The notes under the pieces: generated by a model
Told to the model about the DNA's origin: nothing
Database searches by the model: none
What the model saw: only the letters and a program-made list of their open reading frames with translations
Assembly (NCBI GenBank): GCA_035288045.1
Contig: DATEBA010000005.1
Span: 23,146-87,145, forward strand
DNA length: 64,000 nt
Direction of reading: 5' to 3'
Source of the DNA: Actinomycetota bacterium
GTDB lineage: Bacteria > Actinomycetota > UBA4738 > HRBIN12
In this document: positions 31,293-58,443 of the stretch, piece after piece
How positions within the stretch are numbered: position 1 is the stretch's first letter
Layout of the letters: the number at the start of each line of letters is the position of its first letter
Translations under genes and position numbers: made by a program

Positions 31293-31308
31293 CTGAACTG
31301 CTATGCAA
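31293..31308. promoter_or_regulatory. Operator-like 16-mer upstream of potA (consensus YTGAAY-N4-RTTCAR)
   Basis: CTGAACTGCTATGCAA, one mismatch from consensus. It sits 18 nt upstream of a TATGCT -10 (31327-32). Confidence 0.55.
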
Positions 31309-31341
31309 ACATCCGCCGGGGTGATGTATGCTCCCGCAGCG

Positions 31342-32472
31342 ATGGCGGGGGGAACCGTTCAGCTCGTAGACCTGGTCAAGCGCTTCGGCGAAGTGACCGC
31401 CGTGGACGGCGTCAACCTGCAGATGCCTGCGGGAGAGTTCTTCTCGCTCCTTGGCCCGTCGGGCTGCGGAAAGACGACGACCCTCCGGATGATCGCCGGC
31501 TTCGAGCGTCCGACCGAGGGCGCGATCATGCTGGACGGGGTGGACATGGCGCAGACTCCGCCCCACAAGCGCGACGTCAACACGGTGTTCCAGAACTACG
31601 CCCTCTTCCCTCATCTGAACGTGGCCGACAACGTGGCGTTCGGGCTGAAGTACAAGGACCTCTCGAAGGACGAGATCAAGGCAAAGGTGGGCGAAGCGCT
31701 GTCGCTGGTGCGGCTGGAGGGCTTCGAGAAACGCCGTCCGTCCCAGCTGTCCGGTGGCCAGCAGCAGCGCGTCGCTCTCGCCCGCGCTCTAGTGCTGAAC
31801 CCGCGTGTGTTGCTCCTCGACGAGCCGCTCGGCGCTCTGGACGCGAAGCTGCGCAAGGCTCTGCAGATCGAGCTGAAGACCCTCCAGGAGGAGGTCGGCG
31901 TGACGTTCATATACGTGACGCACGACCAGGAGGAAGCCCTCACGATGTCCGACCGGATCGCGGTGATGTCCAACGGCCGCGTGGAGCAGATCGGGCCGCC
32001 GAGCGACGTCTACGAGTCACCGGCCACCGCCTACGTCGCCGACTTCCTCGGCGTGTCGAACCTCATGTCGGCTCAGGCCGACGGTCCCGAGGGCGGGCGC
32101 TCGAGGGTCCGCCTCGGCCAGTTCGCGGTCTTCGCCGGCCAGGGCGACGTGGACGCCCGCGGTGACGTAAAGATCTGCATCCGCCCCGAGAGGATCCTCC
32201 TGGAGGCGCAGGACAGCGCCGGCGAGAACCGCGTGCCCGCGATGATCGAGCGGGTCGTCTACGTGGGGTCGATCCTGCAGGTGATCGTGAACCTCGCGCA
32301 CGGTGAGCGGATCCAGGTCTGGGTGCAGAACCAGGGTGATGCGCTCCCGTTCCAGCAGGGCCAGCCGGTCTCGGTGCACTTCCCATCCGATGCCTTGAGA
32401 GTTCTCGTGGATCTCGGCCCCGAGGTCGCGTACGCGACGGAGGAGGACACGGAGACGGCTGCGGCCGGCTGA
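31342..32472 (+). CDS. potA: Polyamine-type ABC transporter ATPase
   Basis: GPSGCGKTT, VFQNYALFPHL, LSGGQQQR, LDEPLGALD, YVTHDQEEAL, and a C-terminal TOBE region. Confidence 0.92.
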   Translation: MAGGTVQLVDLVKRFGEVTAVDGVNLQMPAGEFFSLLGPSGCGKTTTLRMIAGFERPTEGAIMLDGVDMAQTPPHKRDVNTVFQNYALFPHLNVADNVAFGLKYKDLSKDEIKAKVGEALSLVRLEGFEKRRPSQLSGGQQQRVALARALVLNPRVLLLDEPLGALDAKLRKALQIELKTLQEEVGVTFIYVTHDQEEALTMSDRIAVMSNGRVEQIGPPSDVYESPATAYVADFLGVSNLMSAQADGPEGGRSRVRLGQFAVFAGQGDVDARGDVKICIRPERILLEAQDSAGENRVPAMIERVVYVGSILQVIVNLAHGERIQVWVQNQGDALPFQQGQPVSVHFPSDALRVLVDLGPEVAYATEEDTETAAAG

Positions 32473-32474
32473 GC

Positions 32475-33425
32475 CTAGATCTCCAGCCGGGCGAAGTCCT
32501 CGACCGCAGAGTGCTCGGCGGTCTCGCGCTTGCGGATGAAACGCCGCTGCACAAGCACGGCCAGCGTGATCGCGCCGAGCGACGCCACAAGCATCAGCGT
32601 GGCGAGCGCGTTCAGCGCGGGACTGGGCGCCAGGCGCGCCGTAGAGTAGATCTTGATCGGCACCGTCACGCAATCCTCGACGCACAGGAACGCGCTGATC
32701 ACGAAGTCGTCGATCGTGATCGCGAAGACGATCATCGCCGCGGCGAATATCGCCGGCAGGAGCAGAGGGAAGAGGACCCGGAAGAGCGCCTGTGCTGGGG
32801 AGGCGCCGAGGTCCATCGCAGCTTCCTCGTATTCCTTCCCGATCGCGAAGAGACGCCCTCGGACGACGATCACCACATAGGAGATGGAGAAGGTGACAAG
32901 CCCGAGGGTCATTGCGGACCAGGGGAGCCAGGGCCTGCCGAAGGGCACCGCCTTGTAGAGGTTGTCGAAGACGAGGAACAGCGAGACGCCCATCACGATC
33001 TCGGGCGTCACCAGGGGGAACAGCATAAGGAAGTTGGCCGGCCCGGAGCCTCGCCCGCGCCACCGGGCGAGCCCGAGGGCGAGCGCCACGCCGATCGGGG
33101 TCGCGACGACCATGACCCATCCGGCGAGCTGGAGGCTATGGACGAGGGCCTGGAAGAGCGACTCGTCGTGGAAGACCGAGAGCTCAGGATCCTGCGTGTA
33201 CCAACGGAGCCCGAAACCCTGGAACGTGCTCCGGGACCTTCCCGTGTTGAACCCGATCCGGACGGCTATCAGGACGGGAACGATGGACCAGGCCATGTAG
33301 AGCCACGTCCAGGCGACGAGCGCCCGCGGCTTGCCCCATGGGTTGCGGAGCCAGTCCCCGAAGCGCCCGGCGAGGGACGACCCCCGCGACGTGGGAGCCG
33401 GGAGCGCGGGGGCCTCGGCGCTCAC
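32475..33425 (-). CDS. potC: Polyamine-type ABC permease (PotC-like)
   Basis: PEIVMG, EEAAMDLGASP EAA loop, DDFVIS, P.LNALAT. The GTG start at 33425 overlaps the potB stop. Confidence 0.88.
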   Translation of the reverse strand: MSAEAPALPAPTSRGSSLAGRFGDWLRNPWGKPRALVAWTWLYMAWSIVPVLIAVRIGFNTGRSRSTFQGFGLRWYTQDPELSVFHDESLFQALVHSLQLAGWVMVVATPIGVALALGLARWRGRGSGPANFLMLFPLVTPEIVMGVSLFLVFDNLYKAVPFGRPWLPWSAMTLGLVTFSISYVVIVVRGRLFAIGKEYEEAAMDLGASPAQALFRVLFPLLLPAIFAAAMIVFAITIDDFVISAFLCVEDCVTVPIKIYSTARLAPSPALNALATLMLVASLGAITLAVLVQRRFIRKRETAEHSAVEDFARLEI

Positions 33426-34354
33426 TGCCGGGCCTCCCTCGCCGCCCGCGCCACGCTGAAGAGGTAGTAGAGCATCAGTACGGCGACGAACATCGAGAGC
33501 ATGAGGGTGATCGAGGCTCCCGTCGGGCCGCCGGCGCGCGTGTGGATGAAGCGGTTGATCATGTTCCCGATCATGCTGGTGTTGGGGCTCCCCGAGAGCA
33601 GGTCGGGCGTGTAGTAGTCCCCGAACATAGGCAGCATGATGATCACCGTTCCGGCGAGGATCCCCTGCTTGGATAGCGGCAGCGTGACGCGCAGGAACGT
33701 CTTCGCCGGGCTCGCGCCGAGATCCCGCGACGCCTCCAGCTGGCTCTTGTCGATGCGGTCGAGCGCCGCGTACATCGGCAGGATGAAGAACGGGATGTAT
33801 CCGTATGCCAGGCCGAGGACTACCGTTACGGAATCGCCGGCCAGCCAGTTCCGCGGAGCGGGGAGGATGTTGAGGAACGTGAAGAGCTTGTTCACGTACC
33901 CGTCCTCCAGGAGGAGGTTCACCCACGCCAGCATCCGCATCAGATAGCTCATCCAGAAGGGCGCGATGAGGAGGACAAGGAGGAGCACCCTACGCTTCCC
34001 GGCGTGCCGGGCGATGTAGTAGGCGACCGGGTACCCCATGACCATGCACAGGGCCGTCGCCGTGAAGACGTACTCGATCGTCCGGATGAACACCGGTTGC
34101 AGCGGCACCATGCCGGCCGCCGGGTTGCCGGTGAAGCTCTTCAGGATGTTGCCGAGCGTCTCCGGGTCCCAGGCGGTGGGCAGCCACGCGGGCTCCGGCT
34201 GTCCGAAGATCGGGTCCAGCCCGCCCATAGCCACGGCGGCGATCGCGTAGAACGGAAGCAGAAACAGCAGGACGAGCCACAGCAATCCGGGGGCGGCGAA
34301 GACGGGCCAGTACCATCGCCGCTGGCCCACGACCCCCAACTCGCCAGAAGGCAT
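33422..34354 (-). CDS. potB: Polyamine-type ABC permease (PotB-like)
   Basis: GYPVAY, PFWMSYLMR.LAW, YIPFFILPMYAAL, EASRDLGASP. Confidence 0.9.
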   Translation of the reverse strand: MPSGELGVVGQRRWYWPVFAAPGLLWLVLLFLLPFYAIAAVAMGGLDPIFGQPEPAWLPTAWDPETLGNILKSFTGNPAAGMVPLQPVFIRTIEYVFTATALCMVMGYPVAYYIARHAGKRRVLLLVLLIAPFWMSYLMRMLAWVNLLLEDGYVNKLFTFLNILPAPRNWLAGDSVTVVLGLAYGYIPFFILPMYAALDRIDKSQLEASRDLGASPAKTFLRVTLPLSKQGILAGTVIIMLPMFGDYYTPDLLSGSPNTSMIGNMINRFIHTRAGGPTGASITLMLSMFVAVLMLYYLFSVARAAREARQ

Positions 34355-34373
34355 GCCACTCGCTCCTCATCGA

Positions 34374-34402
34374 GAGGCCCCGCCCGTGTAGGGCGGGGCC
34401 TC
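34374..34402 (-). terminator. Intercistronic hairpin between potD and potB
   Basis: GAGGCCCCGCCC-gtgta-GGGCGGGGCCTC, a perfect 12-bp stem. Confidence 0.65.
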
Positions 34403-34424
34403 GTAGGCCCGTCGGTTCCCGAGC

Positions 34425-35756
34425 TTAGCCGCCCGCCGTCACCGTCGCGAACGCGTTCTGCCACAACAGGTCCGTCTCCGCGGGGAGGGCCAGGTGCCGC
34501 TTGCCGATGTCGAAGTCCGCTTCCGTCACGATGGTCTCCGGCATCGACTCGAGGACGTAGCCGTCTATCCACCCCTTCGAAGCGTCGAACGGGCCCTTCC
34601 AAGGCCCGAGCAGATCGTCGGGGTTCAGCTGCGTCTGCGCCGGCTGGTAGCCCACCCAGCTGAAGTTCTTCATCGCCACCTTGAAGTCGCAGTAGTAGTT
34701 CAAGAAGGCGTGCGCTAGAACCGGGTTCTGCGCGTTCTTGGGGATCGCGAGGCAGTCGTTGCCCACGGTTCCCAGGCCGAACGCGCTCCGCGCAGGCCAG
34801 AAGTACTGCAGGAAGTGCGGATCGGTGCCCGTCTTGATGTAGTAGGGCGTTGCGACCATGTCGCCGGACCACGCCTCGTGAAGGCCGAAGACGCCCTCGG
34901 GCATCTTCGCGTAGGCGCCGTCGATCGTGTACCGCACGTCGAGGGCCGTGAGCTCCTGGAGCAGCGCGCCGGCAGCCTCGATCGCCGCGCCGTCTCCCGT
35001 GTTCACGTCGTCCACGCCGTTGCGGAACAGCCCGACCGTGAGCGCCTCGCGGTAGTCGTCGTAGAGGCCGATGATGCCCGCGTTGGCCGCGTCCCAGAAC
35101 GGGGCCCAGGGGTCATCCATCGCCGCGAAGTCGTCGACCGACAGGTCCACCATGTCGGTCCGCCAGCCGATCCCGGTGTGATATACGGTGTAGGGCACCG
35201 TGTACTGCGAGCGACCGTCGTAGAAGGGGTCGGCGAGCTGCGGCCACACGTTGGAGAGGTTCGGGATGTAGTCGTGGTTCAGGGGCTGGATTATCTTCTT
35301 CGCGACCAGACCCGGCACCACGTCGATCGTCGGGAAGAAGACGTCGAACTGCGCCTCTCCAGTCTCGATCTTGGAGATCGCCTCCTCCATGTTGTAGAAG
35401 GTCTCGTACTCCCACCCGACGTTGTACTCTTCGGCGAAGTCCTCGAGAACGCGCTTCCAGAAGTAGTCCTGCCAGTTGAAGATCTTGAGCGTCGCTCCCT
35501 CTCTCGCCTCGACCTCGAGGTCCGATTGGATCGGAGGGTTGTCGTCGAAGACCTGGAGCTCGACCGGACTGTCGGGCGTGCCGATCCGGAGCTCGGGTTC
35601 CTCCCCATCTCCCGTGCCCGGGCCCGCGTCCTCCTTGCACGCTGCGAGGAGCGCGGCCATCGTCGGCAGCGCGGTCGCCCCGGCCGCTGTCCGACGAAGG
35701 AAATCCCGCCGGCTCATGTGCAGACGCGACCACCGCTCGGCTGGGTGTCTCAGCAT
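34425..35756 (-). CDS. potD: PotD/PotF-like solute-binding lipoprotein with a Tat signal
   Basis: SRRDFLRR twin-arginine motif, LLAAC lipobox, KIFNWQDY, LNHDYIPNL, YTVPYT, WSGD, DCLAIPK, AHAFLNY. GAAGGAG upstream. Confidence 0.88.
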   Translation of the reverse strand: MLRHPAERWSRLHMSRRDFLRRTAAGATALPTMAALLAACKEDAGPGTGDGEEPELRIGTPDSPVELQVFDDNPPIQSDLEVEAREGATLKIFNWQDYFWKRVLEDFAEEYNVGWEYETFYNMEEAISKIETGEAQFDVFFPTIDVVPGLVAKKIIQPLNHDYIPNLSNVWPQLADPFYDGRSQYTVPYTVYHTGIGWRTDMVDLSVDDFAAMDDPWAPFWDAANAGIIGLYDDYREALTVGLFRNGVDDVNTGDGAAIEAAGALLQELTALDVRYTIDGAYAKMPEGVFGLHEAWSGDMVATPYYIKTGTDPHFLQYFWPARSAFGLGTVGNDCLAIPKNAQNPVLAHAFLNYYCDFKVAMKNFSWVGYQPAQTQLNPDDLLGPWKGPFDASKGWIDGYVLESMPETIVTEADFDIGKRHLALPAETDLLWQNAFATVTAGG

Positions 35757-35770: not shown

Positions 35771-35786
35771 TTGAGCGCCGATTCAA
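35771..35786. promoter_or_regulatory. Operator-like 16-mer upstream of potD
   Basis: TTGAGCGCCGATTCAA, extending to TTTGA...TCAAA, 14 nt from the potD start codon. Confidence 0.6.
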
Positions 35787-35951
35787 AGGGCTAGCTATCA
35801 CAGGCTAGGAGCCCGTGCAAGCCCACCGTCTTTGGATACGTGTGTCGGGGCCTCCGCGGTTGGCCCTCTGAGACCGGGGGTTGCGCCGTTGAACCACGCT
35901 TTTGACCCGCGTGTATCATGCAGCGGCCGCGAGCCACCGGAGGAATCCCCT

Positions 35952-36782
35952 ATGAGCGAGCAGGAAGGGCCCGTACTCCTGGTCGAGGACATCGGACCGG
36001 TACGCCGGCTCACGATGAATCGCCCCAAGTCCCTGAACGCCCTCAACGCCGAGCTCATGGAAGCCATGTCCCGAGCCCTGGCCGAGGCCGCCCGGGACGA
36101 CTCGGTGACCGTCCTCGTCTTGCGCGGCGCCGGGCGCGCGTTCTGCGCCGGCTACGACCTCACAGAGGACGCCGGTTCGGGGGCTATGGACTCCGCCGCC
36201 TGGGAGCGCGAGCTCCGGCACTCGACCGAGGCGATGCTCGAGTTCCTCGATCATCCGAAGCCGACGATCGCGCAGGTCCACAGCTACTGTCTCGCCGGCG
36301 GCACCGACCTCATGCTCGCGTGCGACCTCGCGGTTGCGGCGGACGACTCCTACTTCGGCTACGTCGACATCCGGTTCGGCTCCGGCGTCGTCTCGATGTT
36401 CCTGCCGTGGGTGGTCGGAGTGCGCAAGGCCAAGGAGCTGCTCTTCACGGGGGAGGACCGGATCCCGGCCGACGAGGCGCTCCGGATCGGCCTCGTGAAC
36501 CGCGTCGTGGCGCGCGACGATCTCGACGCGGCGACGCTGTCCCTCGCGGAGGAGATCGCCAAGAACGAGTCGTTCGTCGTGCAGATGTCCAAGCGCGCGG
36601 CGAACCGCGTGTGGGACGTCGCAGGGTTCCGGGCTGCGATGGACGCCAACACCGAGCTCGACACGATCATCGAGACGGCGAACCTTCCGCAGCGCGACGA
36701 GTTCCGGCGGATCACCCAGGAGGAGGGGCTCAAGGCGGCGATCGCGTGGCGAGACGCGCGCTACCGCGGCGGGAGCCCATGA
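35952..36782 (+). CDS. Enoyl-CoA hydratase/isomerase (crotonase) family protein
   Basis: MNRPKSLNAL, FCAGYDL, AGGTDL, GYVD, AKELLFTG, IGLVNRVV. Confidence 0.88.
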   Translation: MSEQEGPVLLVEDIGPVRRLTMNRPKSLNALNAELMEAMSRALAEAARDDSVTVLVLRGAGRAFCAGYDLTEDAGSGAMDSAAWERELRHSTEAMLEFLDHPKPTIAQVHSYCLAGGTDLMLACDLAVAADDSYFGYVDIRFGSGVVSMFLPWVVGVRKAKELLFTGEDRIPADEALRIGLVNRVVARDDLDAATLSLAEEIAKNESFVVQMSKRAANRVWDVAGFRAAMDANTELDTIIETANLPQRDEFRRITQEEGLKAAIAWRDARYRGGSP

Positions 36783-38872
36783 ACCTCGAGCCGCTCCTTG
36801 CTCCTCGATCCATCGCGATCATCGGTGCTTCGGAGAAACCAGACTCCTGGGCACCGGAGATCTATCGGAGCCTCATGCACCTCGGCTACGGCGGCGAGCT
36901 CTACCCGATCAACCCGAAGTACGAGGAGGTCTGGGGCAGACCCTGCCACGCTTCGATCCTGGAGGTTCCCGCGAAGGTCGACCTCGTTGTGGTCGTCGTC
37001 CCGGCGCGCGTGGCGGTGCGGATGGTCGACGACTGCGGCAGGGCCGGCGCGCGCGGCGTCATGGTCGTGTCGAGCGGCTTCGCCGAAGCCGGCGAGGAGG
37101 GGAGGGAGCTACAGGCTGAGCTCCGGGCGACTGCGATGAGGCACCGGCTCCCGGTTCTCGGGCCCAACGTCGAGGGGTTCGTGAACTACGTGGAGCGCGT
37201 GGCGCCATACGGAACGACGCCGCCCCCCGAGCCGGTCCCGGGCGGGATCAGCGTGATCTCGCAGAGCGGCACCGTTGCCTGGACGATGAACCAGATGGCG
37301 TCGGACCGGGGCGTGGGCCTCCGGATCATCCTCGGCGTGGGCAACGAGGCCGTGGTTGGCCTCGGCGATATGTTCGAGTGGGCGGCCGCCGACCGTCACA
37401 CGAAGATCGTCGCGAGCTACCTCGAGACGATGCGCGACGTCGAGGGCATGGGTCGCGGGCTGGATGCGCTCAGAAGGGCCGCCAAGCCGGTGCTGATCTG
37501 TGCTCCCGTTGGCCGGAGCGAGGCGGCGCGCCGCTCGATCGTCGCTCACACCGGCGCGCTGGCGGGGAACACCGGACTCCGCGACGCGTGGCTGCGCGGT
37601 TTGGGCGTGATCCTCGTGAACGACCCGGTGGAGATGTTCGAGGCGGCGGTGCTTCTGTCGTACCACCGCAAGCTCCGGGCCACCGGCGTCGCCGCGGCGC
37701 TGCAGTCGGGAGGCGCCTGCACGCTGTTCGCCGAGGCCGCGGGAGCGGCGGGGCTGGAGCTGCCCGAGTTCGCGACCTCGACCAAGCGCAAGCTGAGGAA
37801 GGCCCTGCCGCACTTCGCCAGCCAGAACAACCCGCTCGACGTGACCGGCCAGGCGGCCGTCGAGACCGACATGTACGTGGGTGCGCTCGAGGCTCTCGCG
37901 ACCGACCCGAAGGTCGGCTTCGTCGGCTTCGATGCGTTCCCGCCGCGCCTCGAGGACGAGGGCGTTTGGGCCGAGCCGGTGCTGAAGCGTGTCCGCGAGC
38001 TCCAGAAGGAGACCGGAGTCGTCTTTGCCTCGGTTGCGATGAGCTCGCTCTCCTACACGAGGGCGGCCAAGGACTTCGTGGACGATGCCGGGTTCCCATT
38101 CATCCAGGGGCACCGCGCGTCTGCCGGCGCGATCCGAGCGCTCGTCGAGCTGCAGGGGACGAAGGCGCGGGCGACGCGGCAGGTTCCGGCGCACGCGAAC
38201 CGCGGGAGGGCCATGCGTGTGCTGTCGGGGCTGTCTGGCACGCTCGACGAGGCCCAGGCGGCGAGGCTCCTCGAGCTCTACGGTGTGCCGCGGCCGGAGG
38301 AGCGGGTCGTCGATACCCCGGAGAGAGCTTCGGCCGCGGCACGCGCGATCGGCTTCCCCGTCGCGATCAAGGCGGTCGCGCCCGAGCTGCCGCACAAGGC
38401 GAAGCTCGGTGGGGTGCGGCTCGCGATCGGGTCCCCGGCCGACGCCGAGCTCGCGGCGGCCGATGTGTTTCGGATCGCGCGACACGCCGGCGCGCGGAGG
38501 CCGCAGGTGATTGTCCAGCGGATGGTCGACGGGGCCGAGATACTCCTCGGGGCGGTCGTCGACGAGCGGTTCGGGGCTTGCGTGACCATCCGGCCGGGCG
38601 GCGCGCTCGCGGAGGCCGGCGGGGCCACGTTCGTCCGCGCCCCGCTCACCGCCGCGCAGTCGCTCGCCTACGTCGACGAGCAGGGCGATCGCTGCCGGTT
38701 GGACCCGGCTCGCCACGACGTGCGGGCGGTCGCCAAGGCGGTCGAGGCGATCGCGCGGGCGGCGCACGACCTGCGCGGGCGGCTCGCATCGCTCGAGGCG
38801 AACCCGCTCATCGTGATGCACAAGGGGGCCGTTGCCGTGGACGCGTTAGCGGAAGCACGGCCGTCCGCGTGA
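36779..38872 (+). CDS. ADP-forming acyl-CoA synthetase (fused alpha-beta)
   Basis: SIAIIGAS, YPINPKY, SQSG, GNEA, phospho-His AHTGALAG, NNPLD, and ATP-grasp HKAKLGGV. The ATG overlaps the crotonase stop. Confidence 0.9.
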   Translation: MNLEPLLAPRSIAIIGASEKPDSWAPEIYRSLMHLGYGGELYPINPKYEEVWGRPCHASILEVPAKVDLVVVVVPARVAVRMVDDCGRAGARGVMVVSSGFAEAGEEGRELQAELRATAMRHRLPVLGPNVEGFVNYVERVAPYGTTPPPEPVPGGISVISQSGTVAWTMNQMASDRGVGLRIILGVGNEAVVGLGDMFEWAAADRHTKIVASYLETMRDVEGMGRGLDALRRAAKPVLICAPVGRSEAARRSIVAHTGALAGNTGLRDAWLRGLGVILVNDPVEMFEAAVLLSYHRKLRATGVAAALQSGGACTLFAEAAGAAGLELPEFATSTKRKLRKALPHFASQNNPLDVTGQAAVETDMYVGALEALATDPKVGFVGFDAFPPRLEDEGVWAEPVLKRVRELQKETGVVFASVAMSSLSYTRAAKDFVDDAGFPFIQGHRASAGAIRALVELQGTKARATRQVPAHANRGRAMRVLSGLSGTLDEAQAARLLELYGVPRPEERVVDTPERASAAARAIGFPVAIKAVAPELPHKAKLGGVRLAIGSPADAELAAADVFRIARHAGARRPQVIVQRMVDGAEILLGAVVDERFGACVTIRPGGALAEAGGATFVRAPLTAAQSLAYVDEQGDRCRLDPARHDVRAVAKAVEAIARAAHDLRGRLASLEANPLIVMHKGAVAVDALAEARPSA

Positions 38873-39720
38873 TCTACGGGCTCGCCGCGGCGCTGGGGTG
38901 GGGGTTCTCGGACTTCACCGCCGCCGTCGTCTCCCGGAGGATCGGCAGCTTCACCACGGTCGTTGTGTCGCAGGTCACCTCGGTCGTTCTGCTGCTCGGT
39001 CTGGTCGCGGTCGTCGGACCCTCGTTCGACGGGCTCGGTCCAGGGTCGCTCGGCCTGCTGGTGTTGAACGGGTTCCTGCTCGCCATCGCCTACGTGATCT
39101 TCTACCGGGCGCTTGCGATCGGACCCGTGGGCCTCGTGTCGCCGATCGTGGCTGCCTACGGGGGGGTCGCCGTGCCACTGGCGATCCTCCTGCTCGACGA
39201 GCGGCTCTCCACGCTCCGGTTGGTGGGCACCGCCGTCACCGTCTGCGGGGTCGTTCTCACCTCCACCGATGTCCGCAAGCTCTCGGGGGGGCGGCAGTGG
39301 AGCGGCACCGGGATCGCGTTCGGCCTCGGCTCGATGGTCCTGTTCGCGGTCGCGACGATCGTCATGGGCTACACCGTGCGGGAGACCGGATGGATGCAGA
39401 CGGTGGTCGTCTCGAGGAGCGTCACCGCCGCGCTGCTCGTCGGCGCGGCTTACCTCCGCCGCACCGGCGTTCGGTCGGCCGGGGTGACGGGTCTTGCCGG
39501 CGCCGCGTTCATCGGACTGGCCGACATCACGGGGGTGGGGTTCTACGCGCGCGGGGCGGAGGTTGGCCTCGTCTCGATCGTCGCCGCCGTTTCGGCGACC
39601 TTCATCCTGATCCCGGTGATCGGCGGCGTAGTGCTCCTCGGCGAGCGTCCCGCCCCGAACCAGTCGCTCGGCGTCGCGATGGTCCTCGCAGGCCTCGTTC
39701 TGATCGGCCTCGGGGGCTGA
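38869..39720 (+). CDS. EamA/DMT-family transporter
   Basis: About 10 hydrophobic segments, FYRALAIGPVGLVSPI, LLDERL, LLGERP...Q..G. Confidence 0.88.
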   Translation: MIYGLAAALGWGFSDFTAAVVSRRIGSFTTVVVSQVTSVVLLLGLVAVVGPSFDGLGPGSLGLLVLNGFLLAIAYVIFYRALAIGPVGLVSPIVAAYGGVAVPLAILLLDERLSTLRLVGTAVTVCGVVLTSTDVRKLSGGRQWSGTGIAFGLGSMVLFAVATIVMGYTVRETGWMQTVVVSRSVTAALLVGAAYLRRTGVRSAGVTGLAGAAFIGLADITGVGFYARGAEVGLVSIVAAVSATFILIPVIGGVVLLGERPAPNQSLGVAMVLAGLVLIGLGG

Positions 39721-39790
39721 CTGGCCGTCTGTGCCCGGGGGTACTATCCGCGAGAGGATCGACGCCGTTCGAGCGCATCGGGAGGGAATC

Positions 39791-40186
39791 GTGTCCAAAG
39801 CACCCGAAACCATCGGCGAGCTCATGACTAGGGATGTGGTGGCGGTTGCTCCGGCCGACACGGTGGAACGCGCGCTCCGGGCGATGATCGAGCGGGACAT
39901 CGGCTCCGTCGTCGTGGCAGAGGGCGGATCCGCGGTCGGGGTCTTCACAGAACGGGATCTCAGCCGCCGCGTGATAGACGACCCGGAGCTGCTGGGGAGA
40001 CCCGTGATCGCGGCGATGTCCTCTCCAGTCGTGTCGGTGGGTCCCGACACCGAGGTTGTGGACGCCTTCGAGCTCATGAACACAAACGGGATCCGTCGGC
40101 TGCCCGTCGTGGAGGACGGCCGTCTCGTAGGGATCGTGACCGAGCGCGACCTGTTGCGCTGGGTGGGCCAGGTGGCGAAGGAGTGA
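39791..40186 (+). CDS. Stand-alone CBS-pair protein
   Basis: IGELMTRDVV, IGSVVV, VGVFTERDL, GIRRLPVVEDGRLVGIVTERDL. GGAGGG precedes the GTG. Confidence 0.9.
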   Translation: MSKAPETIGELMTRDVVAVAPADTVERALRAMIERDIGSVVVAEGGSAVGVFTERDLSRRVIDDPELLGRPVIAAMSSPVVSVGPDTEVVDAFELMNTNGIRRLPVVEDGRLVGIVTERDLLRWVGQVAKE

Positions 40187-40190
40187 GGGC

Positions 40191-40940
40191 GTGAGCTCGG
40201 CCTCCTTCGATTCCGCGGTCGAGACGGTCCGCGCCGCCGCGGCGCGCGACGTGCCGCTTCGGCTCCTGGGCGGACAGGCGGTCCGGCTCCTTTGTCCGAA
40301 CTTCCCGCCTCGCGTGCGCGACGACCAGGACATGGACTTCGCATCGGTGTCGTCGGCGAAGGGGTCCGTGATGGAGTTCCTTTACGACCTCGGCTTCGTT
40401 GGTGACAAGCGCTTCAACACGATGCACGGGCACAAGCAGATGTACTTCACCTCCCCGGGAGGAGGCACGAGCGTGGACGTGGTCATGGATCAGCTGAACA
40501 TGTGCCACGTGCTCGACTTCAGGGACAGGATCGATCGGATGCCGTACACGCTTGACGTGACCGACCTCCTCCTGTCGAAGCTCCAGGTGGTCGAGCAGAA
40601 CGAGAAGGACGTCCAAGACATCGTCTACCTGCTCTGCGCCCACGAGGTGAGCGAAGGCGACGAGCCCGGCGCGGTCGGGCTCGCCCGGTTCGGGGAGGTC
40701 GTCGGTAACGACTGGGGATGGTGGCGAACCGTCACGGGCAACCTGGATCGGGTCGTCGAGCTGGCCGGCGGCGAGCTAAGCCGACTGGTGCCAGCCGGCG
40801 CCGCCCACGACCCCGTCGTGCAAGGCTCCGCCCTCCGCCGGTTCGCCTACGAGACGCCCAAGAGCCTCAGGTGGAAGATCCGTTCGAAGGTCGGGGAGCG
40901 CGTCCGCTGGTACGAGCTTCCCGAGGAGATAGCGCACTAG
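40191..40940 (+). CDS. Uncharacterised DNA polymerase-beta-superfamily nucleotidyltransferase
   Basis: LLGGQAV...RDDQDMDF (hGG...DhD) with a candidate third acid in VDV, then DLLLSKLQ...NEKD..DI. Confidence 0.72.
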   Translation: MSSASFDSAVETVRAAAARDVPLRLLGGQAVRLLCPNFPPRVRDDQDMDFASVSSAKGSVMEFLYDLGFVGDKRFNTMHGHKQMYFTSPGGGTSVDVVMDQLNMCHVLDFRDRIDRMPYTLDVTDLLLSKLQVVEQNEKDVQDIVYLLCAHEVSEGDEPGAVGLARFGEVVGNDWGWWRTVTGNLDRVVELAGGELSRLVPAGAAHDPVVQGSALRRFAYETPKSLRWKIRSKVGERVRWYELPEEIAH

Positions 40941-52552: not shown

Positions 52553-52553
52553 C

Positions 52554-54300: not shown

Positions 54301-55719
54301 GTGAACGAGCTCTCCTCCGTGGCCGCCGTGGACGCGCTCCGGGCGTTCCGGGAGCGATCGCTCTCGCCCGTCGAGCTCCTCGAGGCGGTGATCGCCCGCG
54401 CGGAGGCCGTCGAGCCGACCCTGAACGCCTTCTCCGAGACCCGCTTCGACGAGGCGCTGGTGCAGGCGAAGGAGGCGGAAGCGCGGTATCAGAAGGGCGG
54501 GCGCGTGCGTCCGCTCGAGGGCTTGCCGGTTGCCCTGAAGGACGAGGCCGAGGTGAAGGGATGGAAGGCGACCTTCGGCTCGCTCGCCTTCCGCGACCAG
54601 ATCGCCGACCACACCGCGCCGGTCGCATGGCGGATCCTGCGGAGCGGGGCGATCGTGCACGCGCGGACGACGACCCCGGAGTTCTCCTGCGCGCCCTACA
54701 CGCACTCCCGACTCTGGGGCGTCACCCGGAACCCCTGGAATCCGGAGTTCGCCGTCGGGGGCTCTTCGGGCGGCTCGGGCGCCGCGCTCGCCGCGGGGAC
54801 GGCCGCGCTCGCGAGCGGCTCGGACATCGGCGGTTCGATTCGGATCCCCGCGTCGTTCAACGGCGTCGTCGGGTTCAAGCCGCCGCACGGGCGCGTCCCG
54901 GTGGAACCACCGTTCAACCTCGATCAGTACTGCCACGAGGGGCCGCTCGCGCGCACGGTCGCCGACTGCGCGCTGCTGGAGAACGTGATGGCCGGGCCGC
55001 ACCCGCGCGACGTCACGTCCCTCCGTCCGAAGATCCGGATCCCGCCTGAGCTGAAGGGGATCGAGGGGTGGCGGATCGGGCTGTCGCTCGACCTGGGCGG
55101 CTACCGGGTCGACGACGAGGTCGCGAAGCGGACGCTCGAGGCCGCGGACGCGCTCCGGGAGGCCGGCGCGATCGTCGAGGAGGTCGCGATCGGGTGGGAC
55201 CTCGAGGCGATCGTGCGGTCGGCCCGGATCCACTTCGGGGCGATCTTCGGCGCGGAGATTGGCGAGGTCGCCGCCGAGCACCGCGAGCTCCTCACCGAGT
55301 ACGCCCTCGCGTTCGCCGAGGAGGCCGCGGCCGTGCCGCCGGGAGCGTTCCTCGAGGGGCTCCGGCTGGAGGCCGAGATCTACGCGCACCTCGGGCGATC
55401 GCTGCAGCGCTACCGGGCGCTCGTCTGCCCGACGATGGCCGTGACAGGGTTCGCCGCAGGCGACGATTACCTGGGGCGAACGAGAGAGGACGGCGGGCCG
55501 CTCGACCGGCAGTTCGACGCGTGCATGACGGTGCCGTTCAACGTTTGCAGCCGGTGCCCGGTTCTCGCGGTCCCGTCGGGGTTCGCGTCCAACGGTGTGC
55601 CTACCGGCATCCAGGTCGTCGGCCGGACCTTCGACGATGTGGGGGTCTTCCGGATCGGCGCCGCTCTGGAACGTGTCCGCCCCTGGCTCGACGCGCCCGA
55701 GCGCCGCCCGCGGATCTGA
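54301..55719 (+). CDS. Amidase-signature family hydrolase
   Basis: PLEGLPVALKD, GGSSGG, GSDIGGSIRIPAS.NG..GFKP (Ser-cisSer-Lys triad). Confidence 0.92.
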   Translation: MNELSSVAAVDALRAFRERSLSPVELLEAVIARAEAVEPTLNAFSETRFDEALVQAKEAEARYQKGGRVRPLEGLPVALKDEAEVKGWKATFGSLAFRDQIADHTAPVAWRILRSGAIVHARTTTPEFSCAPYTHSRLWGVTRNPWNPEFAVGGSSGGSGAALAAGTAALASGSDIGGSIRIPASFNGVVGFKPPHGRVPVEPPFNLDQYCHEGPLARTVADCALLENVMAGPHPRDVTSLRPKIRIPPELKGIEGWRIGLSLDLGGYRVDDEVAKRTLEAADALREAGAIVEEVAIGWDLEAIVRSARIHFGAIFGAEIGEVAAEHRELLTEYALAFAEEAAAVPPGAFLEGLRLEAEIYAHLGRSLQRYRALVCPTMAVTGFAAGDDYLGRTREDGGPLDRQFDACMTVPFNVCSRCPVLAVPSGFASNGVPTGIQVVGRTFDDVGVFRIGAALERVRPWLDAPERRPRI

Positions 55720-55790: not shown

Positions 55791-56027
55791 ATGACCGTCG
55801 TGGACCAGGTGAACGTGCATGACGCGAAGACGCACCTCTCCAAGCTGCTGGCCCGCGTGGAGAGGGGGGAGGAGATCGTGCTGGCGCGCGCCGGTAAGCC
55901 TGTGGCCAAGCTCGTCCCTATCGCGCGTCTCGAGCGCCGTCCATCGGGTTTCGCGAAGGGAACCATCTGGATCTCCGACGACTTCGACGATCCTCTCCCC
56001 CCAGAGTTCTGGTTCGGAAGCGATTGA
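55791..56027 (+). CDS. vapB: Phd/YefM-family antitoxin
   Basis: VNVHDAKTHLSKLLARVERGEEIVLARAGKPVAKLVP...SDDFDDPLP. Confidence 0.92.
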   Translation: MTVVDQVNVHDAKTHLSKLLARVERGEEIVLARAGKPVAKLVPIARLERRPSGFAKGTIWISDDFDDPLPPEFWFGSD

Positions 56028-56422: not shown

Positions 56423-56452
56423 CTGAACAGTCGTTCAGTCCGAGGATATGCT
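56423..56452 (+). promoter_or_regulatory. Operator 16-mer and promoter of the acyl-CoA dehydrogenase gene
   Basis: Perfect-armed CTGAAC-AGTC-GTTCAG (56423-38). TATGCT (56447-52) lies 18 nt after the left arm. Confidence 0.65.
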
Positions 56453-56474
56453 GCGCGCACGGAGGTGGTCGCCC

Positions 56475-57647
56475 ATGTTCCCCATGACCGACGAGGACCG
56501 CGAGATCCAGGCCAGGACCCGCCGATTCGTGGACGAGGAGCTGATCCCACACGAGGTCGAGGCCGAGATGAACGACGGCGAGCTTCCTGTGGAGGTGGTC
56601 GAGGCCCAGAAGCGAAAGCTCCACGCCCTGGGTCTGCACGCGGTCAACATGCCGCGCGACCTCGGCGGCGCCGGGCTAACGACGTTCCAGCAGGTCCTGG
56701 TCTCCGAGCAGATCGGAAGGGTGACCAACGGCCTCGGTTGGGTGCTGCACACGGGTCCCGAGTGGGCGATCGAGGCCCTGAACGAGGACCAGATCGAGCG
56801 GTTCCTGAAGCCGATAGTCTCCGGCGAGCGAAGCGAGTGCTACGCGATCACCGAGGCCGGTGCCGGCTCCGACGTCGATGCGATCGAGGCGACGGCTCGC
56901 CGCGACGGCGACGAGTACGTGCTGAACGGCACGAAGTGGCACGTGACCTCGTACAACAGGGCCAATACCGTCTTCTTCCAGGCCAAGCTCGTCGGTGGCG
57001 AGCACGAGGGCTCGCACAGCCTGTTCGTGCTCGACACCCCCTGGGAGGGGGTATCCGTGGTCCGCGTGCCCGCCTACTCCCACACTTACTCGCACCACCA
57101 TCCGATCGTCGAGTTCAAGGACGTGCGCGTCCCCGTCGCCAACCGGATCGGGGAGGAGGGCGACGGCATGCAGTTCACGCAGGCCTGGTTCCGCTACGAG
57201 CGGCTGATGATCGCGGCGCGCTCGTGCGGCGCCGCCGAGCGGCTGATCGAGGAGGCCACAGCCTTCGCGAGGCGCCGGGTGCAGTTCGAGCGGCCGATCA
57301 TCGAGTTCCAGGCGATCGCCCACATGCTCGCTGATTCGCTGACCGAGCTTTGGGCCGCACGGCTCATGACCTACCGCACCGCGGAGGGGATCGACGAGGG
57401 ACTCGACGTCAAGATCCAGCACGCGCACTCCTCCATGGCCAAGGTGTATGCGAGCGAGATGGCCAATCGCGTCGCCGATCGCGCCGTGCAGATCTTCGGC
57501 GGCCGCGGATACATGCGCGAGAACGTCGCGGAGCGGTTCTACCGCGAGGTGCGGGTCGACCGGATCTGGGAAGGAACGTCGGAGATCCAGCGGAACATCA
57601 TCGCCGCGCAGCTGCAGAAGCGCGGCGTTCGAACGCTGGTCGGGTGA
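56475..57647 (+). CDS. Acyl-CoA dehydrogenase
   Basis: YAITEAGAGSD, LNGTKW, RRVQFERPI.EFQAI, AVQIFGGRGY, RIWEGTSEIQR. GGAGGT precedes the ATG. Confidence 0.92.
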   Translation: MFPMTDEDREIQARTRRFVDEELIPHEVEAEMNDGELPVEVVEAQKRKLHALGLHAVNMPRDLGGAGLTTFQQVLVSEQIGRVTNGLGWVLHTGPEWAIEALNEDQIERFLKPIVSGERSECYAITEAGAGSDVDAIEATARRDGDEYVLNGTKWHVTSYNRANTVFFQAKLVGGEHEGSHSLFVLDTPWEGVSVVRVPAYSHTYSHHHPIVEFKDVRVPVANRIGEEGDGMQFTQAWFRYERLMIAARSCGAAERLIEEATAFARRRVQFERPIIEFQAIAHMLADSLTELWAARLMTYRTAEGIDEGLDVKIQHAHSSMAKVYASEMANRVADRAVQIFGGRGYMRENVAERFYREVRVDRIWEGTSEIQRNIIAAQLQKRGVRTLVG

Positions 57648-57659
57648 GGCGGGAGCCGA

Positions 57660-58301
57660 TCAGCTCTTCGCGCCGGCGCCGAGCTCCTGGCGCGAGACCT
57701 CGAAGCCGATCTCCTTGGCGGCCATCTCCAGCACCGTCTGGCGCATGCGGTGCGGGGTGACCTCGCTGTCGTTCATCACGACCTGGATCGCCAGCCCGTC
57801 GATCAGCGCGCCGATGCGGAGCGCCAGCTCGTCGGCGTCGCCTTCGGGGAACTCTCCGTTCTTCTGGCCGGTTCGGATGATGTCGGCGATCGAGTCCCGC
57901 CAGCGCTTGTCGAGCGTCTCGCGGTCGCGGGCCATCTTCTCGTTGTGCAGGGCTCGGGTCCAGACCTCGATCCAAAGCGCCCACTCGTCGAGGCGTCCAT
58001 ACTCGGGCAGTAGGCCGGGCACCGACAGGTCGATCAGGCGCATCAGCTGTTCCTTGGCGCTCGGGATCCGCCGCACCTCGCGCGAGAGCCTCAGGTAGAA
58101 CTGGTCGTTCGCGAACGACAGCGCCTCAGAGAGCAACCGATCCTTGGACTCGAAGTAGTAGAGGATCAGCCCCGGCGAGACACCGGCCCGCTCGGCGATA
58201 TCGGAGATGCGGGTCTCGGCCAGCCCCCGGTCCGTTATGACCTGGGCGGCGGCATCGAGTATCTCCTGATGCCGATCCGGTTTCTGCCGTTGCGCGCCCA
58301 T
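57660..58301 (-). CDS. TetR-family regulator (BetI-like C-terminal domain)
   Basis: EILDAAAQVI.DRGLAETRISDIAERAGVSPGLILYYFESKD.LL, WIEVW, A..IGALIDGLAIQ. Confidence 0.9.
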   Translation of the reverse strand: MGAQRQKPDRHQEILDAAAQVITDRGLAETRISDIAERAGVSPGLILYYFESKDRLLSEALSFANDQFYLRLSREVRRIPSAKEQLMRLIDLSVPGLLPEYGRLDEWALWIEVWTRALHNEKMARDRETLDKRWRDSIADIIRTGQKNGEFPEGDADELALRIGALIDGLAIQVVMNDSEVTPHRMRQTVLEMAAKEIGFEVSRQELGAGAKS

Positions 58302-58427
58302 CCCTCTCCCGTCGACCTTGAATCTCATACAGGCCGGACCCCCGGTCCGGCCCCTCGGCGGTCCACCGCCGGAGTCACTTTACGCCGTCTACCTGCGGTG
58401 TCAAACGTCCGGCCCCCGGTCACCGAC

Positions 58428-58443
58428 TTGACTGGCTGTTCAG
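58428..58443. promoter_or_regulatory. Operator-like 16-mer upstream of the COG1233 flavoprotein
   Basis: TTGACTGGCTGTTCAG. Its left arm doubles as a TTGACT -35. Confidence 0.6.

What the first reader, a model, noticed from the sequence alone, without database searches (positions are those of the whole stretch)
31293..58443. A shared 16-bp operator links a split Pot-like transporter, a PYROXD2-like flavoprotein and CoA enzymes into one predicted regulon
Seen: four intergenic sites fit YTGAAY-N4-RTTCAR. They are CTGAACTGCTATGCAA (31293, potA), TTGAGCGCCGATTCAA (35771, potD, also facing the crotonase-ligase operon), CTGAACAGTCGTTCAG (56423, acyl-CoA dehydrogenase) and TTGACTGGCTGTTCAG (58428, COG1233 flavoprotein then ligase 2). 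Three of the four overlap a plausible -35. Known: TetR/BetI repressors bind palindromes of this size near their own gene, and a BetI-like TetR sits between sites 3 and 4. Inference: one regulator controls genes spread over 27 kb. They would encode import by the Pot-like ABC, flavin oxidation, ADP-forming CoA ligation, dehydrogenation via ETF and crotonase chemistry. I do not recognise this combination as a described pathway. It looks like CoA-dependent breakdown of an amine or N-methylated amine.
Basis: partly seen in the sequence, partly recalled or inferred. Interest (0 to 1): 0.82.

Follow-up and report, generated by a model that had tools for sequence, protein, structure and literature searches.

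The report
Conserved TetR operator regulon, amine/betaine catabolism
A 16-bp palindromic DNA site recurs in front of four scattered gene groups (a transporter, two CoA ligases, a flavoprotein and other CoA enzymes), and in related uncultured soil bacteria it sits in front of the same genes next to the same TetR repressor gene, so it looks like a real shared switch for an undescribed breakdown pathway.

Summary
All four quoted sites are at the stated coordinates. One matches YTGAAY-N4-RTTCAR exactly and three have one mismatch. At up to one mismatch the window holds 5 matches against 0.38 expected.

Conservation is the decisive evidence. In 931 kb from 58 related loci (uncultured Actinomycetota), 69 of 71 matches lie just upstream of orthologs of the acyl-CoA dehydrogenase, the TetR/flavoprotein pair, the solute-binding protein, PotA/MFS or an aldehyde dehydrogenase. 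Only one lies in 154 kb of other intergenic DNA. The motif tracks a divergent TetR ortholog (odds ratio 46, p=3e-7). It sits on -35 regions or transcription starts.

I conclude this is a TetR-repressor regulon.

- The crotonase operon has its own operator, which is degenerate in this window.
- Site 1 also serves the MFS gene.
- The ETF and GcvT/DMGDH genes are outside the regulon.

The substrate is unknown. Ligase 2 keeps the key residues of DddX (the ATP-dependent DMSP lyase), including the onium-binding Trp. Flavoprotein orthologs often neighbour GcvT-type and Rieske demethylase genes. Both point to an onium or N-methylated acid. No binding or enzyme data exist.

The parts
31293..31308 (.). 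Operator site 1 (CTGAACTGCTATGCAA), between the divergent MFS and PotA genes
   Evidence: PWM score 13.6 bits. L033 has a positional ortholog, TCGAACGGTCGTTCAA, between PotA and MFS. Relatives L056-58 carry a perfect site before AldDH1-PotA instead.
30053..31270 (-). MFS transporter gene, probable extra target of site 1
   Evidence: Pfam MFS_1. The layout site - 9 bp - hexamer - 6/7 bp - ATG is the same in L033 and in the window (reading of the sequence, inferred).
31342..32472 (+). PotA-like ABC ATPase. The ORF opens at 31303; the likely start is ATG 31342.
   Evidence: Pfam ABC_tran + TOBE_2. NCBIfam potA subfamily TIGR01187 scores 378 against a cut-off of 355.6. The N-terminus MAGGTVQLVDLVK matches the L033 ortholog.
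32475..35756 (-). SBP (34425-35756), permease 1 (33422-34354) and permease 2 (32475-~33419) operon of the Pot-like ABC importer
   Evidence: Pfam SBP_bac_1 and BPD_transp_1. GC3 frame analysis. Distant PotD/PotF similarity.
35771..35786 (.). Operator site 2 (TTGAGCGCCGATTCAA), 15 bp upstream of the SBP start codon, on the predicted SBP transcription start
   Evidence: PWM score 20.0 bits. Conserved at the same position in L054-L059. Conserved promoter-like TTGCAC-17-TAGCTA at 35820-35792 on the minus strand (inferred).
35889..35904 (.). Degenerate operator 2b (TTGAACCACGCTTTTG) at the -35 position of the crotonase promoter; the -10 TATCAT is at 35914-35919
   Evidence: Only 6.5 bits here. It is the positional ortholog of good sites in L054-L058, e.g. 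TTGAAGCGCGGTTCAG and TCGAACGGCGGTTCAA.
35952..40940 (+). Crotonase (35952-36782), ADP-forming ligase 1 (36782-38872), EamA (38872-39720), CBS (39731-40186), unknown 249 aa (40191-40940): one co-directional gene string
   Evidence: Pfam. The ECH-Lig1-EamA order is conserved in L029, L033 and L056-58. The unknown-249 ortholog shares an operator-bearing intergenic region with ACAD in L001 and L002.
56423..56438 (.). Operator site 3 (CTGAACAGTCGTTCAG, perfect palindrome) at the -35 position of the ACAD promoter; -10 TATGCT at 56447-56452; RBS at 56461-56468
   Evidence: Exact match. PWM score 22.2 bits. The same architecture occurs upstream of ACAD orthologs in L001-3, L011, L013, L014, L030 and L042.
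56475..57647 (+). Acyl-CoA dehydrogenase
   Evidence: Pfam Acyl-CoA_dh_N/M/1. The gene call in L063 agrees.
57660..58301 (-). TetR-family regulator with BetI-type C-terminal domain, the candidate repressor (213 aa)
   Evidence: Pfam TetR_N + TetR_C_6. Gene call of 213 aa. Its promoter TTGACA-16-TAAAGT lies at 58404-58377 on the minus strand. Co-occurs with the motif.
58428..58443 (.). Operator site 4 (TTGACTGGCTGTTCAG); its left half is the -35 of the flavoprotein promoter; it overlaps the palindrome CTGTTCAGGAACAG (58436-58449)
   Evidence: Promoter TTGACT-17-GATGAT called by the tool. TTGAC..TTCA is invariant in the 10-sequence alignment. Present upstream of most actinobacterial orthologs.
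58513..62257 (+). CrtI/amine-oxidase-superfamily flavoprotein (58513-60138) and ADP-forming ligase 2 (60149-62257), which is DddX-like
   Evidence: Pfam. The FlavoP-Lig2 pair is conserved in more than 20 loci. The best PDB hit of Lig2 is DddX, 7cm9. His292 and Trp391 equivalents are conserved in Lig2 and its actinobacterial orthologs (50-69% identical).
54902..54917 (.). Fifth motif match (TGGAACCACCGTTCAA) inside the amidase gene; status unknown, possibly chance
   Evidence: PWM score 16.8 bits. Shuffled windows give a mean maximum of 11.6 and reach 18.4. No amidase ortholog in the fetched loci, so conservation could not be tested.

Best explanation
The sites are operators of one TetR-family repressor, most likely the BetI-type TetR at 57660-58301.

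As a dimer it would bind the palindrome YTGAAC-N4-GTTCAR. At the ACAD, flavoprotein-ligase 2 and (ancestrally) crotonase-ligase 1 promoters, the left half-site doubles as the -35 hexamer and a -10 follows 7-10 bp after the site. At the SBP and MFS/PotA promoters the site lies on or next to the transcription start or -35.

A bound repressor would therefore exclude or block RNA polymerase. A pathway substrate or intermediate would release it and switch on, together, uptake (Pot-like ABC importer, MFS) and catabolism (flavoprotein, two ADP-forming CoA ligases, ACAD, crotonase) across about 27 kb.

Shown here: the sites, their conservation and specificity, the promoter overlap, and the co-occurrence with the TetR. 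Inferred: that this TetR is the binder, that it represses, and what the inducer is.

The pathway most likely degrades a positively charged carboxylate, either N-methylated or onium (betaine- or DMSP-like). Ligase 2 would activate it, and perhaps cleave it, in a DddX-like way. ACAD and crotonase would process the CoA ester. The flavoprotein would oxidise a C-N bond.
For: Window enrichment: 5 matches against 0.38 expected.

Specificity in relatives: 69 of 71 matches in 931 kb of related loci fall within -250..+20 of target-ortholog starts, 1 in 154 kb of other intergenic DNA, and 1 in coding sequence.

Unbiased search: enumerating all 5-mer inverted repeats returns only TGAAC-N4-GTTCA (18 of 61 target regions against 1 of 75 controls, p=1.3e-6) and a shifted form of it.

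Conserved position relative to -10 or RBS at ACAD, TetR/FlavoP and SBP/ECH. Promoters called by the tool overlap site 4.

Motif against divergent TetR ortholog: 19/2/5/24, odds ratio 46, p=2.9e-7. Dormibacterota clusters lack both.

Negative controls: no sites upstream of GcvT-like, IclR or GMC orthologs.

Functional linkage: the same gene set recurs in many arrangements, and is contiguous in Dormibacterota.

Substrate clues: Lig2's top PDB hit is DddX, with H292 and W391 equivalents conserved in Lig2 and its actinobacterial orthologs (50-69% identical) and an acidic residue at E432 in nearly all (PMC8163506). GcvT-like and Rieske oxygenase genes lie next to flavoprotein orthologs. The TetR has a BetI-type C-terminal domain.
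Against: There is no binding, expression or enzyme data.

The de novo test mitigates this.

In this window the TetR-proximal autoregulatory copy seen in relatives is lost. The crotonase operator scores only 6.5 bits.

L021, L024 and L026 carry the motif with no TetR within 10 kb. L038 has a TetR ortholog but no motif.

ACAD sites are degenerate in L006-L010. A strong match inside the amidase gene is unexplained.

The substrate clues are indirect. Lig2 is only 28.6% identical to DddX, which is about as far as it is from 4-hydroxybutyrate-CoA ligase. The apparent flavoprotein-GcvT fusion is not solid.
Confidence: 0.8

Rival explanations
1. The palindrome is a real transcription-factor site, but it is bound by a regulator other than the neighbouring TetR, encoded elsewhere in the genome.
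For: L021, L024 and L026 have the motif upstream of the flavoprotein with no TetR ortholog within 10 kb. The SBP loci L054-58 have sites with no regulator nearby. In this window the TetR has no operator copy downstream of its own promoter.
Against: Motif and divergent TetR co-occur strongly (odds ratio 46). Relatives have 2-3 sites in the TetR/flavoprotein intergenic region, including one just downstream of the TetR -10. Operator length and symmetry are typical for TetR dimers. The operator variant changes together with the more divergent TetR orthologs in L018-L022.
Confidence: 0.08
2. The same protein and sites act as a class II activator system (bound at about -41) rather than as a repressor.
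For: At ACAD, flavoprotein and crotonase promoters the site sits where class II activators bind. The half-sites serving as -35 are imperfect: CTGAAC matches the -35 consensus TTGACA at only 3 of 6 positions, and the tool calls no promoter at ACAD.
Against: The SBP site covers the predicted transcription start. TetR-proximal sites in relatives lie downstream of the -10. Both positions fit repression only. TetR-family proteins with this layout are overwhelmingly repressors (general knowledge).
Confidence: 0.07
3. The matches are chance, or generic A+T-rich -35-like promoter sequence in a 69% G+C genome, with no common regulator.
For: At up to 2 mismatches the window shows no enrichment. The left half-sites resemble TTGACA. 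The pattern was defined after the fact from four sites.
Against: Both half-sites are conserved at orthologous positions across genomes whose flanks have diverged. There is only 1 hit in 154 kb of non-target intergenic DNA. It is the only enriched inverted repeat in the de novo enumeration.
Confidence: 0.02
4. The inverted repeats act at the RNA level, as small hairpins (terminator or attenuator), not as protein-binding DNA.
For: Site 3 lies 12 bp after the vapC stop codon and could form a 6-bp stem.
Against: No T-run follows, and the terminator scan finds nothing there. The half-site sequence itself is conserved (TGAAC/GTTCA) rather than the pairing being kept through compensatory changes. The sites lie upstream of -10 elements at three promoters.
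Confidence: 0.01

Closest known systems
BetI, the choline-responsive TetR-family repressor of the bet genes (E. coli and others)
   Same: TetR_N helix-turn-helix plus the BetI-type C-terminal domain PF13977. The gene is divergent from a regulated catabolic or transport gene, with an operator in the shared intergenic region. The E. coli betI-betT intergenic region contains TTGATTGGAC|GTTCAATATAA, which has the same TG(G/A)AC/GTTCA half-site core. That this stretch is the BetI operator comes from my own knowledge, not from a test here.
   Different: It is not a BetI ortholog: NCBIfam TIGR03384 scores 88 bits against a cut-off of 201. The half-sites are 4 bp apart here, against adjoining in E. 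coli. L018-L022 have a composite form, CTGAAC|GTTCAG. The targets are CoA-dependent enzymes, a CrtI-like flavoprotein and a Pot-type importer spread over 27 kb, not betTIBA.
DddX, the ATP-dependent DMSP lyase of the ADP-forming acyl-CoA synthetase superfamily (PMC8163506; PDB 7cm9)
   Same: Ligase 2 has the same domain architecture, and 7cm9 is its best PDB match (3.6e-79). The phospho-His (H292) and the cation-pi Trp (W391, NPLDxWG) are conserved in Lig2 and in its actinobacterial orthologs (50-69% identical). An acidic residue aligns with the base E432 in nearly all. Like dddX, it sits with a transporter for charged solutes and with enzymes that could handle acryloyl-CoA (crotonase, ACAD).
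   Different: Only 28.6% identical, no closer than to the 4-hydroxybutyrate and 3-hydroxypropionate ligases. F435 is not conserved. The E432 loop alignment is uncertain. The neighbours are a PotD-type rather than a BCCT transporter, plus a flavoprotein absent from ddd clusters. Activity is untested.
DMSP demethylation pathway DmdA-DmdB-DmdC-DmdD/AcuH
   Same: The same enzyme classes travel together: a GcvT-family methyl/aminomethyl transferase, an acyl-CoA ligase, an acyl-CoA dehydrogenase and a crotonase. The window's GcvT-like protein scores 319 bits on the DMSP demethylase model.
   Different: DmdB is AMP-forming, while the ligases here are ADP-forming. The DmdA model cut-off (410) is not reached. 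The window's GcvT-like gene is outside the operator regulon. A CrtI-like flavoprotein has no counterpart in the Dmd pathway.
Dimethylglycine/sarcosine dehydrogenase-type N-demethylases (flavoprotein plus GcvT folate domain) and GbcA-type Rieske betaine demethylases
   Same: Flavoprotein orthologs are followed directly by GcvT-like genes in L021, L024 and L026. In Dormibacterota (checked in L016) and in L021 they are accompanied by Rieske/Ring_hydroxyl_A oxygenase genes. That is the enzyme toolkit of stepwise betaine N-demethylation.
   Different: The flavoprotein belongs to the CrtI/amine-oxidase superfamily, not the DAO family. A true fusion is not established: in L026 the two genes read through as one ORF, but P0121 is a frameshift artefact and the 97%-identical cluster is a stand-alone protein. 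No chemistry has been tested.
PotABCD/PotFGHI polyamine ABC importers
   Same: The ATPase passes the potA subfamily model. There are two BPD_transp_1 permeases. The best PDB matches of the SBP are PotD/PotF proteins.
   Different: The SBP scores 83 bits against a PotD cut-off of 582. The ATPase gene is transcribed separately and converges on the permease genes, an arrangement conserved in relatives. The ligand is unknown.

Membership tests
TetR-family repressor with local palindromic operator | N-terminal TetR-type helix-turn-helix domain | tested here: met
   PF00440 TetR_N, 57.7 bits against a cut-off of 24.
TetR-family repressor with local palindromic operator | Palindromic operator of about 15-20 bp near its own gene, overlapping target promoters | tested here: met
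   Site 4 lies in the TetR/flavoprotein intergenic region and overlaps the -35. Relatives have 2-3 copies there.
TetR-family repressor with local palindromic operator | Direct, ligand-relieved binding of the protein to the operator | not testable with these tools
   Needs EMSA, footprinting or reporter assays. Only co-occurrence is available (odds ratio 46, p=2.9e-7).
BetI (choline-binding repressor, equivalog) | Score above the curated cut-off of the BetI equivalog models | tested here: not met
   TIGR03384 scores 88.2 against 201.3; NF001978 scores 78.6 against 118. It shares the BetI-type C-terminal domain PF13977 (86 bits).
DddX (ATP-dependent DMSP lyase) | Phosphorylated histidine H292 in the swinging loop | tested here: met
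   AHSGALAG is conserved in Lig2 and in its actinobacterial orthologs (50-69% identical), and also in Lig1 (AHTGALAG). This feature is common to the whole superfamily.
DddX (ATP-dependent DMSP lyase) | Trp391 making a cation-pi contact with the onium group | tested here: met
   NPLD[FAV]WGTG in Lig2 and in all its actinobacterial orthologs. Thr in Lig1, Val in 4-hydroxybutyrate-CoA ligase, Gly in 3-hydroxypropionate-CoA ligase.
DddX (ATP-dependent DMSP lyase) | Acidic general base at position 432, and Phe435 | tested here: inconclusive
   E or D aligns with E432 in most Lig2 orthologs (Q in L018), but it lies in a gapped loop. F435 is not conserved: Pro in window Lig2.
DddX (ATP-dependent DMSP lyase) | DMSP-dependent formation of DMS and acryloyl-CoA | not testable with these tools
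   Needs an enzyme assay. Lig2 is 28.6% identical to DddX.
PotABCD polyamine importer | ATPase and SBP reach the curated PotA and PotD equivalog scores | tested here: not met
   PotA equivalog NF006987 scores 398.9 against 482. PotD NF007048 scores 83.5 against 582. Only the potA subfamily model TIGR01187 passes, at 378.2 against 355.6.
DmdA (DMSP demethylase) | Score above the NF009133 cut-off | tested here: not met
   319 against 410 for the GcvT-like protein at 48872-50002. That gene also lacks the operator.
Phytoene desaturase (CrtI) / CrtO ketolase family | Score above the curated family cut-offs | tested here: not met
   TIGR02734 scores 95.8 against 238.1. CrtO NF045689 scores 240 against 1000. 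CrtI 4dgk is the only sizeable PDB match, at 2.9e-14.
PYROXD2-like flavoprotein | Closer sequence relationship to PYROXD2 than to other CrtI-superfamily members | not tested
   No PYROXD2 sequence or model was available in the tools. The best 120 homologs carry only generic names.

The most novel reading that the evidence does not exclude
The regulon encodes an undescribed catabolic route for an onium or N-methylated beta- or omega-amino acid, for example beta-alanine betaine or its partly demethylated forms. That would be a nitrogen analogue of DMSP breakdown.

A DddX-like ADP-forming ligase would activate the charged acid and possibly cleave it. ACAD and crotonase would finish the C3/C4 CoA ester. 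A CrtI/PYROXD2-type flavoprotein, working with GcvT-type folate proteins, would be a new class of N-demethylase.

The route appears widespread in soil Actinomycetota and Dormibacterota. If the flavoprotein proves to be a true PYROXD2 relative, it would give the first biochemical handle on that orphan human enzyme. The PYROXD2 locus is tied to trimethylamine and dimethylamine levels (PMC3169529).
Probability: 0.25. Interest if true: 0.8.

Novelty: new variant of a known kind. Interest (0 to 1): 0.58.

Why it matters
The regulatory logic is ordinary: a TetR repressor with palindromic operators. What it ties together is not. The set is a Pot-type importer, two ADP-forming CoA ligases (one with the DddX onium-binding signature), a CrtI-superfamily flavoprotein of unknown function with more than 8000 homologs in metagenomes, an ACAD and a crotonase.

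The same genes travel together in many uncultured Actinomycetota and Dormibacterota, so this is probably a common soil pathway for a charged or methylated nitrogen (or sulfur) compound that nobody has described.

The operator gives a clean experimental entry point. The TetR can be used as a ligand sensor to identify the substrate, and the regulon defines which enzymes to assay.

Tried and rejected
(1) Specific enzyme names. None of the ten key proteins reaches an NCBIfam equivalog cut-off. PDB sequence searches gave only generic or structural-genomics relatives for the TetR, SBP, ECH and ACAD.

(2) Literature. Searches on PYROXD2 plus bacterial demethylase, butyrobetainyl-CoA plus ADP-forming synthetase, phytoene dehydrogenase plus aminomethyltransferase plus betaine, and the BetI operator found no description of this cluster. 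The alanine-betaine search surfaced DddX.

(3) Rosetta-stone fusion of the flavoprotein with GcvT. L026 has a 925-aa read-through ORF. A database search found only one other long candidate, P0121, and that is a frameshift artefact. The 97%-identical cluster is a stand-alone 541-aa protein. I therefore downgraded this evidence to conserved adjacency.

(4) Terminator or hairpin reading of site 3: rejected.

(5) Conservation of the intragenic 54902 match could not be tested, because no amidase ortholog occurs in the fetched loci.

(6) My crude coding mask over-extended ORF 5' ends and mislabelled 29 intergenic sites as coding. I re-read the result using target-window membership instead.

(7) Upstream of AldDH1 in the window (28513-28635) there is no site.

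Full report
**Observation**

Only 56423 (CTGAACAGTCGTTCAG) fits YTGAAY-N4-RTTCAR perfectly; the others have one mismatch each. At up to one mismatch the 64-kb window (68.7% G+C) has five matches against 0.38 expected, and no shuffle reached five. At up to two mismatches there is no enrichment (6 against 5.3). The fifth match (54902) lies inside an amidase gene.

**Gene map**

- MFS, 30053-31270, minus strand.
- PotA-like ATPase, plus strand. The ORF opens at 31303. The likely start is 31342, because the N-terminus MAGGTVQLVDLVK matches the L033 ortholog.
- Permease 2, permease 1 and SBP, 32475-35756, minus strand.
- Crotonase (35952-36782), ADP-forming ligase 1, EamA, CBS and an unknown 249-aa protein, running to 40940, plus strand.
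- A block without the motif: GMC oxidoreductase, two metallophosphoesterase-like genes, a permease, an aldehyde dehydrogenase, then IclR, DmdA-like GcvT, DMGDH-like, ETF beta/alpha and amidase.
- A Phd/PIN toxin-antitoxin pair, 55791-56410.
- ACAD, 56475-57647.
- TetR with BetI-type C-terminal domain, 57660-58301, minus strand (213 aa by the public gene call).
- CrtI-superfamily flavoprotein, 58513-60138.
- ADP-forming ligase 2, 60149-62257.

A genome scan with the flavoprotein returned 53 loci, all from uncultured Actinomycetota, Dormibacterota and a few other MAGs, at up to 79% identity. A metagenome scan with the SBP returned six more.

The sequence upstream of flavoprotein orthologs carries TTGAC[CT]NNNCGTTCAA at a fixed distance from a -10-like hexamer. 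There are usually one or two further copies nearer the divergent gene.

Of these, 69 lie within -250..+20 of the starts of target orthologs: ACAD, TetR/flavoprotein, SBP, PotA/MFS, ECH, AldDH1, or ligase 2 where it stands alone. One lies in about 154 kb of other intergenic DNA, and one in coding sequence. My crude coding mask over-extended ORFs, so I read that result by target-window membership.

An enumeration of every 5-mer inverted repeat with spacers 0-10 found only TGAAC-N4-GTTCA (18 of 61 target regions against 1 of 75 controls, p=1.3e-6) and its shifted form.

The next best is 9.3. Shuffled windows have a mean maximum of 11.6.

Orthologs of the GcvT-like, IclR and GMC genes have no site.

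**Position relative to promoters**

- **Site 4.** Its left half is the -35 of a tool-called promoter, TTGACT-17-GATGAT. The divergent TetR promoter TTGACA-16-TAAAGT lies 20 bp away.
- **Site 3.** It is followed after 8 bp by TATGCT, then GGAGGTG and the ATG. The same layout recurs upstream of ACAD orthologs in nine loci.
- **Site 2.** It lies 15 bp upstream of the SBP start codon. It follows a conserved TTGCAC-17-TAGCTA, so it sits on the predicted transcription start (inferred).
- **Crotonase operon.** It has its own operator in relatives, e.g. TTGAAGCGCGGTTCAG or TCGAACGGCGGTTCAA, 9 bp before a conserved TATCAT. In this window, and in the nearly identical L059, it has decayed to TTGAACCACGCTTTTG (35889-35904, 6.5 bits).
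- **Site 1.** It sits 22 bp from the MFS start and 33 bp from the likely PotA start. L033 has the same PotA/MFS arrangement, with TCGAACGGTCGTTCAA and the same spacing to a -10-like hexamer and the MFS ATG. In L056-58 a perfect site precedes an AldDH1-PotA operon instead.

**The regulator**

For 50 flavoprotein genes in 47 loci with enough upstream sequence, motif presence against a divergent TetR ortholog gives 19 / 2 / 5 / 24 (both / TetR only / motif only / neither). The odds ratio is 46 and p=2.9e-7.

The Dormibacterota clusters lack both the TetR and the motif. More divergent TetR orthologs (39-51% identity, L018-L022) go with a composite variant, TAGACTGAACGTTCAGTCAA.

The protein is not a BetI ortholog: 88 bits against a cut-off of 201. 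Its half-site core does resemble the E. coli betI-betT intergenic dyad TTGGAC|GTTCAA.

In this window the TetR-proximal operator copy seen in relatives has been lost.

Binding, repression and the inducer are all inferences.

**The pathway**

Gene neighbourhoods link the same set independently of the motif. In Dormibacterota one contiguous cluster reads ligase, ACAD, ECH, ligase, PotA, permeases and SBP, divergent from flavoprotein, Rieske oxygenase and two GcvT-like genes (the Rieske gene was checked in L016). Actinobacterial loci shuffle the same modules.

Ligase 2's best solved relative is DddX, the ATP-dependent DMSP lyase (7cm9, 3.6e-79). It keeps the residues the DddX authors call diagnostic (PMC8163506):
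- The phospho-His H292.
- The cation-pi Trp W391, conserved as NPLDxWG in Lig2 and in all its actinobacterial orthologs, and absent from ligase 1 and from the 4-hydroxybutyrate and 3-hydroxypropionate ligases.
- An acidic residue aligned with E432, although it lies in a gapped loop.

Overall identity to DddX is only 28.6%.

The flavoprotein belongs to a very large family, with more than 8000 homologs carrying only generic names. Its orthologs often sit next to GcvT-like and Rieske (GbcA-like) genes.

An apparent flavoprotein-GcvT fusion in L026 is not solid. The only other long candidate is a frameshift artefact, and the 97%-identical cluster is a stand-alone protein.

Taken together, the clues favour a positively charged, N-methylated or onium carboxylate as substrate. 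The specific compound is unknown. 'PYROXD2-like' could not be tested.

**Verdict**

The operator and regulon are real with high probability. They are a conserved feature of a lineage of uncultured Actinomycetota. The regulatory mechanism is a standard TetR design. The pathway it controls appears undescribed and is worth experimental follow-up.

Noticed in passing
window 55791-56410: A Phd/YefM antitoxin (55791-56027) and PIN/VapC toxin (56024-56410) pair sits between the amidase and ACAD genes. Its stop codon is 12 bp before operator site 3. Collinear relatives (L006-L014) have no such pair at that place.
   Followed up: partly
window 54902-54917: A fifth strong motif match (TGGAACCACCGTTCAA, 16.8 bits) lies inside the amidase coding sequence. 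It may be chance or an internal site. No amidase ortholog was available for comparison.
   Followed up: partly
window 58436-58449: A perfect 6-2-6 palindrome, CTGTTC-AG-GAACAG, overlaps the right half of site 4. It shares the 8-mer CTGAACAG/CTGTTCAG with site 3 and is not present in relatives.
   Followed up: no
window 58318-58333 and alignment A2: A block containing one good half-site (TTGAAT/TTGAAC) is conserved near the TetR start codon in all ten aligned relatives. Its partner half is not palindromic (RACAG).
   Followed up: no
window 40948-54274: Two motif-free gene blocks look like choline/betaine-type catabolism: GMC oxidoreductase, two metallophosphoesterase-like genes, an amino-acid permease and an aldehyde dehydrogenase; then IclR, DmdA-like GcvT (319 bits on the DMSP demethylase model, below cut-off), DMGDH-like and ETF beta/alpha. 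They are presumably under the IclR regulator.
   Followed up: partly
L018-L022 (e.g. L018 813-832): More distant loci carry a 20-bp composite palindrome, TAGACTGAACGTTCAGTCAA, made of two overlapping 16-bp sites. Its core CTGAAC|GTTCAG resembles the E. coli betI-betT dyad TTGGAC|GTTCAA (L061 131-153).
   Followed up: partly
L015-L017, L025, L040, L041 (about 100-200 bp upstream of the flavoprotein gene): Dormibacterota clusters lack the TetR and the motif. They share other conserved upstream elements (CCCTTGTCAAT and GGACTAGAGTTTCG), which suggests a different regulator for the same gene set.
   Followed up: no
L026 10001-12778; protein P0121: L026 reads through from the flavoprotein into the GcvT-like gene as one 925-aa ORF. 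P0121 (917 aa) looks like the same fusion but is out of frame over residues ~385-545, so it is an assembly or frameshift artefact.
   Followed up: yes
window 40191-40940: The last gene of the crotonase-ligase 1 string encodes a 249-aa protein with no Pfam match. In L001 and L002 its ortholog is divergent from ACAD, with an operator between them.
   Followed up: no
window 30053-30084: The 3' ends of the aldehyde dehydrogenase (plus strand) and MFS (minus strand) genes overlap by 32 bp. In L056-58 the MFS gene is absent, and AldDH1-PotA form one operator-preceded operon.
   Followed up: partly
window 18591-21777: A second, unrelated TetR (TetR_C_1 type) lies divergent from an MMPL transporter gene. 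No copy of the motif is nearby.
   Followed up: no
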